Position numbers and translations under genes: made by a program. DNA of 33,147 bases, taken from UHGV virus genome UHGV-0236124; one strand, written 5' to 3'. Numbering within the stretch: the first letter of the stretch is position 1; every line of letters starts with the position of its first letter. This document shows positions 9,531 through 10,243 of this stretch, in pieces. Source of the DNA: a virus. The notes beneath the pieces are model-generated. The model saw nothing but the letters and a program-made list of their open reading frames with translations. It ran no database searches and was not told where the DNA came from.

Positions 9531-9856
9531 TGACGACGTTAACTCAATGCCAGCAGCAGGTGCTGGATATGCTGATTTCTTACCAGAAAGAACGTGGCTT
9601 CCCGCCAACCAATCAGGAGGTGGCAACCATGCTGGGATACCGTTCGGTGAATGCAGCGGTGGAGCATCTTCGCGCACTGGAGAAAAAAGGCGTCATCACG
9701 ATAAAGCGTGGCGTGGCCCGGGGGATAACGCTTCATACCGCGGTGAAGGACGACGACAGCGAGGCTGTCGGGATTATCCGCTCACTGCTTGCCGATGAGG
9801 AAAACGCAAGGCTGCGTGCAACCCACTGGCTACATGAGAGAGGCCTGAAAGTATGA
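9530..9856 (+). CDS. LexA N-terminal DNA-binding-domain-like protein lacking the S24 protease domain
   Basis: 108 aa from ATG overlapping upstream stop (TAATG); LTQCQQQVLDMLISYQKERGFPPTNQEVATMLGYRSVNAAVEHLRALEKKGVITIKRGVARGITL aligns by eye with the LexA N-terminus. Confidence 0.65.
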   Translation: MTTLTQCQQQVLDMLISYQKERGFPPTNQEVATMLGYRSVNAAVEHLRALEKKGVITIKRGVARGITLHTAVKDDDSEAVGIIRSLLADEENARLRATHWLHERGLKV

Positions 9857-10243
9857 AACTGATCCTGCCTTTCCCGCCCAGCGTGAACACGTACTGGCGA
9901 CACCCCAACAAAGGGGCGTTTGCTGGTAAGAGCGCTGATAAGCGCGGCGGGGCGAAAATTCCAGAGCGCGGCGTGCGCAGCAATAGTTGAGCAGTTACGT
10001 CGTCTGCCGAAACCAACGTCGGCACCTGCTTCAGTGGAGATCGTGTTGTTTCCTCCGGATAACAGGATCCGCGATCTGGACAACTATAACAAGGCGCTGT
10101 TTGACGCCCTGACCCACGCGGGGGTGTGGGAAGACGACAGTCAGGTGAAAAGAATGCTGGTGGAGTGGGGACCGGTTATCCCGGAAGGGAAGGTCGAGAT
10201 CACTATCAGTAAGTACGAGAAAACGGCGGGTGCAGCCGCCTGA
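9853..10243 (+). pseudogene. rusA: rusA-like Holliday junction resolvase interrupted by a +1 frameshift
   Basis: N-terminus MKLILPFPPSVNTYWRHPNKG in frame 1 stops at 9988-9990; the remainder (ISAAGRKFQ...RDLDNYNKALFDALTHAGVWEDD) continues in frame 2; removing one G from the GGGG run at 9913-9916 restores a single ORF. Confidence 0.65.

What the first reader, a model, noticed from the sequence alone, without database searches (positions are those of the whole stretch)
9853..10243. rusA interrupted by a single-base frameshift in a G4 run
The RusA N-terminal motif (PFPPSVNTYWRHPNKG) is in one frame and terminates at 9988-9990, while the rest of RusA continues in the +1 frame. Deleting one G from GGGG at 9913-9916 restores a continuous RusA. 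This is either a genuine inactivating mutation (prophage decay or phase-variable homopolymer) or a sequencing error.
Basis: seen in the sequence. Interest (0 to 1): 0.4.

Follow-up and report, generated by a model that had tools for sequence, protein, structure and literature searches.

The report
Frameshifted rusA pseudogene in a prophage

Summary
The frame break is real. The rusA start frame (9853-) stops at TGA 9988-9990, and the rest of RusA runs in the +1 frame to 10243. Intact orthologues also have GGGG at 9913-9916. The extra base is G9934 (AGAGC^CTGAT -> AGAGCGCTGAT), after codon 27, and it is not in a homopolymer. The native protein reads ...NKGAFAGKSLISAAGRKF... (129 aa, WP_000767113.1). 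Over 33,007 aligned bases the window differs from E. coli YJ3 by 3 substitutions and this one indel, so the assembly is not rich in indel errors. The same +G occurs in other public assemblies: one ENA metagenome scaffold and contigs from four named SRA runs. Three of those contigs carry a further rusA lesion (a second frameshift or a nonsense codon). I conclude it is a genuine, inherited loss-of-function allele. It is neither a sequencing error nor a phase-variable tract. It is absent from 5,426 complete E. coli genomes. About 2% of copies there and in IMG/VR carry other frameshifts. One small oddity remains: the identical non-homopolymer insertion sits on two allelic backgrounds about 3% apart, which suggests either a local insertion hotspot or a very short gene-conversion patch. 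Overall this is ordinary and of low interest.

The parts
9853..9933 (+). rusA codons 1-27 in the native frame (MKLILPFPPSVNTYWRHPNKGAFAGKS). The ATG overlaps the TGA of the upstream LexA-like gene (ATGA at 9853-9856).
   Evidence: Identical to the 5' end of WP_000767113.1 in E. coli 6409 and YJ3.
9934..9934 (+). The lesion: one inserted G (AGAGC^CTGAT -> AGAGCGCTGAT). It is not in a homopolymer.
   Evidence: Alignments. It is the only indel in 33,007 aligned bases against strains 6409 and YJ3.
9934..9990 (+). Out-of-frame tail of the 5' fragment (ADKRGGAKIPERGVRSNS) ending at the premature TGA 9988-9990. The whole product is 45 aa.
   Evidence: The 45-aa product has no Pfam hit.
9935..10243 (+). 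rusA codons 28-129 plus the stop, now in the +1 frame. This part holds all the catalytic residues.
9913..9916 (+). This is wild-type sequence, not the lesion.
   Evidence: GGGG in intact orthologues. 129 of 132 related copies have GGGG and none has GGG.
9920..10243 (+). Mechanical 107-aa ORF starting at TTG, called as a gene in public assemblies. It lacks RusA residues 1-22, and its residues 2-6 are non-native.
   Evidence: Pfam RusA profile positions 21-123 only.
10073..10138 (+). Codons of the catalytic residues, all intact but downstream of the frameshift: D74 (10073-10075), D76 (10079-10081), K80 (10091-10093), D94/D95 (10133-10138). They correspond to E. coli RusA D70, D72, K76, D90/D91.
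   Evidence: Alignment to 1Q8R, coordinates, residue roles from PMC1636454.
9963..9969 (+). AGAGCGC, a direct copy of the heptamer that the insertion creates at 9929-9935. The intact gene shares only AGAGC. It is a possible template for the insertion (inference).
9530..9856 (+). Upstream LexA-DNA-binding-domain gene (108 aa), with stop/start overlap to rusA.
   Evidence: RefSeq annotation of the identical region in 6409 and YJ3. Pfam LexA_DNA_bind on the public contigs.
10246..11072 (+). Downstream KilA-N gene (ATG 10263) with its own Shine-Dalgarno sequence AAGAGGAG at 10246-10253. Its translation need not depend on rusA.

Best explanation
This is a true, heritable single-base insertion (+G at 9934) that inactivates the rusA Holliday-junction resolvase gene of an otherwise intact-looking lambdoid prophage of E. 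coli. The prophage is integrated next to a dusA fragment. Translation starts normally, coupled to the upstream LexA-like gene. It reads 27 native codons, shifts frame, adds 18 unrelated residues and stops at TGA 9988-9990. By alignment to E. coli RusA, the 45-aa product keeps only the first beta-strand, the short DNA-contacting turn and most of the flexible loop. It lacks both helices, three of the four strands and every catalytic residue (D74, D76, K80, D94/D95), so no resolvase is made. The 3' part is not expected to be translated usefully. Its only early start is a TTG at 9920, inside the translated 5' ORF, three bases after a weak SD-like AAGGGG. A product from there would lack strand 1 and the DNA-contacting turn. 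The loss is most likely neutral decay of a dispensable phage recombination gene. Shown: the position of the lesion, its presence in independent assemblies, family membership, and the position of the catalytic residues. Inferred: loss of activity, neutrality, and lack of polarity on the downstream KilA-N gene, which has its own SD.
For: The only indel against the two closest genomes over 33 kb is G9934, alongside 3 substitutions (YJ3) or 24 (6409). The intact 129-aa protein WP_000767113.1 is encoded by the same sequence minus this G and is recorded on at least 1000 contigs. The same +G is found in ENA ERZ28584472 scaffold_158 and Logan SRR14234464, both 100% identical to the window over 6.3 and 5.0 kb. 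It is also in Logan ERR1618351, SRR30845500 and SRR11059083. ERR1618351 also has a -G in the G5 run. SRR30845500 and SRR11059083 also have a CAG->TAG nonsense codon in the 3' part. So the 3' ORF is not being maintained after the frameshift. Pfam RusA and PDB 1Q8R matches. The catalytic residues D70/D72/K76/D90-91, the four-stranded sheet with two helices, the flexible loop 15-28 and the DNA contacts of residues 13-16 come from PMC1636454. Other independent frameshifts of this gene exist. One is -T at 9987/9988 in 5CRE51 (flagged 'frameshifted' by RefSeq) and, judging by their 389-base match, four more complete genomes. Another is +T near 10053 in EC23-1020 (also flagged) and two IMG/VR contigs. 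A third is +A at about 9932 in ERR13993525.
Against: No reads were inspected. The +G allele is absent from all 5,426 complete E. coli genomes. It is also absent from the phage GenBank set, GTDB species representatives, IMG/VR and JGI metagenome contigs. It is therefore rare, and all other sightings are in automated assemblies (Logan, ENA). Some of those may be re-assemblies of overlapping samples. Loss of function is inferred from structure and literature and was not measured.
Confidence: 0.9

Rival explanations
1. Sequencing or assembly error in the window's source: the true sequence is intact rusA.
For: A single-base indel is the classic signature of a consensus error. The allele is missing from every complete E. 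coli genome and from the curated phage set.
Against: The inserted G is not in a homopolymer. There is no other indel in 33 kb against two near-identical genomes. The identical insertion occurs in contigs from an ENA assembly and four named SRA runs, including multi-kb contigs. In three of those contigs it is linked to further private rusA lesions.
Confidence: 0.04
2. Phase-variable switch: slippage in the G4 run 9913-9916 turns rusA on and off.
For: Removing one G of the run restores an open frame.
Against: GGGG is the state in intact genes. It is GGGG in 129 of 132 related copies and never GGG or GGGGG at that place in the close family. The real lesion is 18 nt downstream of the run and is not repetitive. 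A G3 repair would encode a non-native heptapeptide in the loop. Four bases is also short for a contingency tract (general knowledge).
Confidence: 0.01
3. The gene is still expressed, either by +1 ribosomal frameshifting in the 9887-9987 overlap or as two fragments (45 aa plus 107 aa) that reassemble into an active dimer.
For: The two frames overlap by about 100 nt. The 107-aa ORF keeps all catalytic residues and has a weak SD-like AAGGGG three bases before its TTG. Gene callers annotate it.
Against: The two-frame layout is not conserved: 125 of 132 copies have the single-ORF sequence at this site, and the intact protein is on at least 1000 contigs. I saw no known +1 slippery or hungry-codon motif at the junction, but no formal motif scan was run. 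Relatives with the same +G have gone on to acquire a nonsense codon or a second frameshift in the 3' part. The 107-aa product would lack strand 1 of the sheet and the DNA-contacting residues 13-16.
Confidence: 0.03
4. The loss is not neutral. Inactivation of prophage rusA is selected, or position 9929-9935 is a mutational hotspot, which would explain why the same insertion recurs.
For: The identical +G sits on two backgrounds. The window allele equals the 6409/YJ3 allele plus G. The SRR30845500/SRR11059083 allele equals IMG/VR L123 plus G plus one nonsense SNP. These backgrounds differ by about 12 substitutions in 391 nt, and the nearest differences are 16 nt upstream and 33 nt downstream of the insertion. 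A separate +A event lies 2-3 nt upstream. The insertion completes a 7-nt direct repeat AGAGCGC with 9963-9969. At least four independent frameshift events are seen in this gene family.
Against: Only about 2% of sampled copies are broken: 1 of 55 full-length rows in a spread sample and 2 of 84 IMG/VR copies. That fits slow neutral decay across a very large number of sequenced genomes. A short gene-conversion patch between co-resident lambdoid prophages (up to 4 copies per genome) explains the shared +G equally well. The repeat argument is post hoc.
Confidence: 0.2

Closest known systems
RusA family crossover junction endodeoxyribonuclease WP_000767113.1 (E. coli 6409, YJ3 and many others; 129 aa)
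   Same: Identical nucleotide sequence apart from G9934, with the same neighbours: a PerC-like gene, a LexA-DNA-binding gene, rusA, KilA-N, DUF968/HNH and an antiterminator.
   Different: The window copy has one extra G and so encodes a 45-aa stub instead of the 129-aa enzyme.
E. coli K-12 RusA of the defective prophage DLP12 (PDB 1Q8R, 2H8C, 2H8E)
   Same: Same Pfam family PF05866, aligned over residues 3-120 with E 4e-18. The catalytic D70/D72/K76/D90-91 equivalents and the N-terminal PPSxN motif are conserved.
   Different: It is a distant paralogue (129 vs 120 aa, with a 4-residue-longer flexible loop). The K-12 gene is intact but transcriptionally silent until activated by IS insertion (PMC1636454). 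The window gene is well placed for expression but broken.
RefSeq-flagged 'frameshifted' rusA pseudogenes in E. coli 5CRE51 (CA593_RS02295) and EC23-1020 (ACD599_RS07810)
   Same: Same gene family, same prophage module, and single-base frameshifts that truncate the protein.
   Different: The positions and events differ: -T in TT at window 9987/9988, and +T near window 10053. Those two are at short runs, whereas the window's +G is not.

Membership tests
RusA Holliday-junction resolvase (Pfam PF05866) | Profile match above the curated threshold | tested here: met
   Repaired protein 56.4 bits against a cut-off of 22.8, profile positions 1-123 of 124. The 3' ORF alone scores 51.1 bits. The 45-aa stub has no hit.
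RusA Holliday-junction resolvase (Pfam PF05866) | Catalytic residues equivalent to D70, D72, K76, D90/D91 of E. coli RusA | tested here: met
   RDLDNYNK...WEDD aligns with RDLDNLQK...WLDD, giving D74, D76, K80, D94/D95. Residue roles are from PMC1636454. All lie downstream of the frameshift.
RusA Holliday-junction resolvase (Pfam PF05866) | One uninterrupted ORF of about 120-130 aa encoding the whole fold | tested here: not met
   The frame is broken at 9934 with a premature TGA at 9988-9990. It is a pseudogene of the family, not a functional member.
RusA Holliday-junction resolvase (Pfam PF05866) | Mg2+-dependent symmetrical cleavage of Holliday junctions; suppression of ruv mutants | not testable with these tools
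   This needs biochemistry or genetics.
Phase-variable (contingency) homopolymer locus | The frame-changing indel lies inside a simple-sequence tract | tested here: not met
   The inserted G is flanked by C on both sides, and the G4 run is unchanged relative to intact genes.
Phase-variable (contingency) homopolymer locus | Tract length varies among close relatives | tested here: not met
   129 of 132 copies have GGGG. The other three differ by substitution, not by length within the close family.
Programmed ribosomal frameshift | The two-frame arrangement is conserved among orthologues | tested here: not met
   125 of 132 copies are single-frame at this site. The intact 129-aa protein is on at least 1000 contigs, against a handful for the split products.
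Sequencing artefact | The difference is not reproduced in independent data sets | tested here: not met
   It is reproduced in ERZ28584472, SRR14234464, ERR1618351, SRR30845500 and SRR11059083. Raw reads were not inspected.

The most novel reading that the evidence does not exclude
The site AGAGC^C at 9929-9934 is a recurrent, sequence-templated +1 insertion hotspot. A nascent strand ending in AGAGC mispairs with the AGAGC 34 nt downstream, copies GC, and realigns on the C. This has produced the same +G independently on at least two rusA alleles. It would be a natural example of a non-homopolymer frameshift hotspot driven by direct quasi-repeats in a widespread prophage gene. Selection against prophage RusA could be acting in addition.
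Probability: 0.2. Interest if true: 0.25.

Novelty: already known. Interest (0 to 1): 0.1.

Why it matters
It matters little. It corrects an annotation detail: the lesion is a +G at 9934, not a slip in the G4 run, and the native sequence is ...GAFAGKSLISAAG.... It shows that this lysogen's prophage cannot supply a RusA resolvase, for example as a back-up for RuvC. It also adds one allele to the list of recurrent, low-frequency inactivations of a dispensable phage recombination gene. The only point of wider interest is that the identical non-homopolymer insertion occurs on two allelic backgrounds. That could serve as a small natural test case for templated frameshift mutagenesis versus micro-scale gene conversion between prophages.

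Tried and rejected
1. The G4-run hypothesis was rejected by alignment to intact orthologues.

2. Exact-pattern scans for the 32-mer spanning the +G found nothing in GTDB species-representative genomes, IMG/VR or JGI metagenome contigs. The allele was found only by exact-protein look-up of its two ORF products and their 90% cluster.

3. A 48-nt query across the insertion against complete E. coli genomes and against phages gave no 100% match. The best was 97.9%, which is one gap.

4. I considered that the window might be one of the public contigs carrying the allele. ENA scaffold_158 starts at window position 89 and the other contigs are shorter than the window, so the window's source is a further assembly.

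5. I considered general prophage decay. It was rejected because only one synonymous SNP (24934) besides the +G separates the prophage part of the window from YJ3.

6. I did not run structure prediction or the large protein searches. The solved RusA structures and the literature already answer what the truncation removes.

Full report
**What is in the sequence**

An ORF starts at ATG 9853. This ATG overlaps the TGA of the upstream LexA-DNA-binding-domain gene (ATGA at 9853-9856). The ORF encodes MKLILPFPPSVNTYWRHPNKGAFAGKSADKRGGAKIPERGVRSNS and stops at TGA 9988-9990. The +1 frame is open from 9887 to the stop at 10241-10243. It encodes ...LISAAGRKFQSAACAAIVEQLRRLPKPTSAPASVEIVLFPPDNRIRDLDNYNKALFDALTHAGVWEDDSQVKRMLVEWGPVIPEGKVEITISKYEKTAGAAA. 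It is not a chance resemblance. The joined protein matches Pfam RusA PF05866 (E 6e-15, 56.4 bits, cut-off 22.8) and E. coli RusA 1Q8R (E 4e-18).

**Where the lesion really is**

The 391-nt segment has about 3,000 close matches in complete E. coli genomes and dozens in phages. Nearly all of them span 390 nt. E. coli strains 6409 and YJ3 are identical to the window across rusA except for one gap.

- The window reads GTAAGAGCGCTGATAAG where the intact genes read GTAAGAGC-CTGATAAG.
- The extra base is G9934, between C9933 and C9935. It follows codon 27 (AGC, Ser).
- The GGGG at 9913-9916 is present unchanged in the intact genes. It is GGGG in 129 of 132 related copies collected here and never GGG.
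- The native protein (WP_000767113.1, 129 aa) reads ...RHPNKGAFAGKSLISAAGRKF....
However, it would give a non-native GRLLVRAL stretch.

**Real mutation or error**

The whole window aligns from position 141 to the end with YJ3 (33,007 nt: 3 substitutions, 1 gap) and with 6409 (24 substitutions, 1 gap). The single gap in both is G9934. The source assembly therefore shows no other indel differences in this window.

Exact-sequence look-ups of the two ORF products found the same allele elsewhere:

- The 107-aa ORF is on four contigs. Two of them are ENA ERZ28584472 scaffold_158 (52 kb) and Logan SRR14234464 (8.7 kb). Both are 100% identical to the window over 6.3 and 5.0 kb.
- The 45-aa product is in Logan ERR1618351.
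- A 45-aa variant is in Logan SRR30845500 and SRR11059083.

Alignment shows the identical +G in all of them. ENA scaffold_158 begins at window position 89 and the other contigs are shorter than the window, so the window comes from yet another assembly.

Three of these contigs carry further rusA damage. ERR1618351 has lost a G from the G5 run (window 10120-10124). SRR30845500 and SRR11059083 have CAG->TAG at about window 10141-10143. Secondary lesions in the 3' part are what a dead gene accumulates. They are hard to reconcile with a consensus error or with a still-used 3' ORF. I could not inspect reads, so a small doubt remains.

**How rare it is**

No copy with the +G exists in any of these collections:

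- 5,426 complete E. coli genomes: 2,976 places for the whole gene, and 1,241 places for a 48-nt probe across the site, with a best identity of 97.9% (one gap).
- The GenBank phage set.
- GTDB species representatives.
- IMG/VR.
- JGI metagenome contigs.

Other independent frameshifts of this gene do occur:

- -T at 9987/9988 in 5CRE51, where RefSeq marks the gene 'frameshifted'. Four more complete genomes have the same 389-base match and probably share it.
- +T near 10053 in EC23-1020, also flagged 'frameshifted', and in two IMG/VR contigs.
- +A 2-3 nt upstream of the window's site in ERR13993525.

The baseline is about 2% broken copies: 2 of 84 full-length IMG/VR copies, and 1 of 55 full-length rows in a spread sample of complete genomes.

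**What the mutation does**

According to the RusA structure papers, the monomer is a four-stranded mixed sheet flanked by two helices. Residues 13-16 contact DNA. Residues 15-28 form a flexible loop that enters the junction centre. D70, D72, K76 and D90/D91 are needed for cleavage (PMC1636454).

In the alignment to 1Q8R, Ser27 of the window protein corresponds to about T25 of E. coli RusA, at the end of the flexible loop. By that alignment, the 45-aa product keeps only strand 1, the turn and most of the loop, followed by 18 unrelated residues.

The catalytic equivalents D74, D76, K80 and D94/D95 (window 10073-10138) are all downstream of the shift.

The only early start in the 3' frame is TTG 9920. 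It lies inside the translated 5' ORF, three bases after AAGGGG. A product from there would lack strand 1 and the DNA-contacting turn. The next in-frame starts (GTG at about 10043 and later) would also remove helix 1.

I infer complete loss of resolvase activity. This step is inference and was not measured. The downstream KilA-N gene has its own strong SD (AAGAGGAG 10246-10253, ATG 10263), so its translation need not depend on rusA. Transcriptional polarity was not assessed.

**Context**

The window is the left 33 kb of a lambdoid prophage. From left to right it holds:

- A dusA fragment at the left junction.
- A regulatory and replication region: ymfK/ymfT/ymfL-like genes, then ash, HTH, PerC-like, LexA-like, rusA, KilA-N, DUF968/HNH and an antiterminator.
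- A DNA methyltransferase.
- A lysis cassette.
- Terminase, portal, capsid and tail genes up to gpJ.

This layout follows the RefSeq annotation of the near-identical regions in 6409 and YJ3. Inside the prophage the only other difference from YJ3 is a synonymous GCG->GCA at 24934. This is a single-gene loss in an otherwise intact-looking prophage, not a generally decayed one.

**One unexplained detail**

The window allele equals the 6409/YJ3 allele plus G. The SRR30845500/SRR11059083 allele equals the IMG/VR L123 allele plus the same G plus one nonsense SNP. The two backgrounds differ at about 12 of 391 positions. The nearest differences lie 16 nt upstream and 33 nt downstream of the insertion.

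Either the same non-homopolymer insertion arose twice, or a patch shorter than about 50 nt moved between prophages. Up to four copies of this gene family occur per genome.

The insertion creates AGAGCGC at 9929-9935. This is an exact copy of AGAGCGC at 9963-9969, whereas the intact gene shares only AGAGC. A transient misalignment between these direct quasi-repeats would yield exactly this +G. The argument is post hoc and untested (note).

**Comparison and verdict**

The gene belongs to the RusA family by profile and by catalytic residues, but it fails the requirement of an uninterrupted ORF, so it is a rusA pseudogene. It is not a contingency locus, because the lesion is not in a repeat and the G4 tract is invariant. 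It is not a programmed frameshift, because the two-frame layout is not conserved. It is very unlikely to be a sequencing error, because it is reproduced in independent assemblies. Frameshifted rusA pseudogenes in this same prophage module are already flagged in RefSeq. Novelty: already known kind. Interest: low (0.1).

Noticed in passing
window 1-140 (junction at 140/141): The window starts inside an IS1 element. Bases 1-140 are an IS1 end (100% match to IS1A/IS1B copies, median 10 places per E. coli genome). It abuts the host DUF2713 pseudogene at 141. Strains 6409 and YJ3 have no IS1 here and align only from 141. ENA scaffold_158, which carries the same rusA allele, begins at window 89, inside this IS1.
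   Followed up: partly
window ~767-871: A 5' fragment of the tRNA-dihydrouridine synthase gene (dusA) lies at the left edge of the prophage, according to the RefSeq annotation of the identical region in 6409 and YJ3. This suggests a dusA-integrating prophage. The integrase and right end are outside the window.
   Followed up: no
window 19363-19890 and 32771-33006: Differences from strain 6409 are clustered: 8 substitutions in the terminase large subunit / small downstream ORF region, and 14 in the start of gpJ. YJ3 is identical to the window there. These look like recombination patches between related prophages.
   Followed up: no
window 9929-9935 vs 9963-9969; loci L129, L130, L123: The identical +G occurs on two rusA allelic backgrounds about 3% apart, and it completes a 7-nt direct repeat AGAGCGC with a copy 34 nt downstream. 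This points to a possible templated insertion hotspot or a very short gene-conversion tract.
   Followed up: partly
L002 (5CRE51), L132 (EC23-1020), L033, L041, L131, L006: This rusA family carries at least four other independent inactivating events in public data: -T at window 9987/9988, +T near 10053, +A near 9932, and -G in the G5 run at 10120-10124. There is also a CAG->TAG nonsense codon near 10141. About 2% of sampled copies are broken.
   Followed up: partly
L038 (IMG/VR): One otherwise intact copy has its stop codon replaced by a sense codon (the translation ends ...GAAAR with no stop), so the protein is extended at the C-terminus.
   Followed up: no
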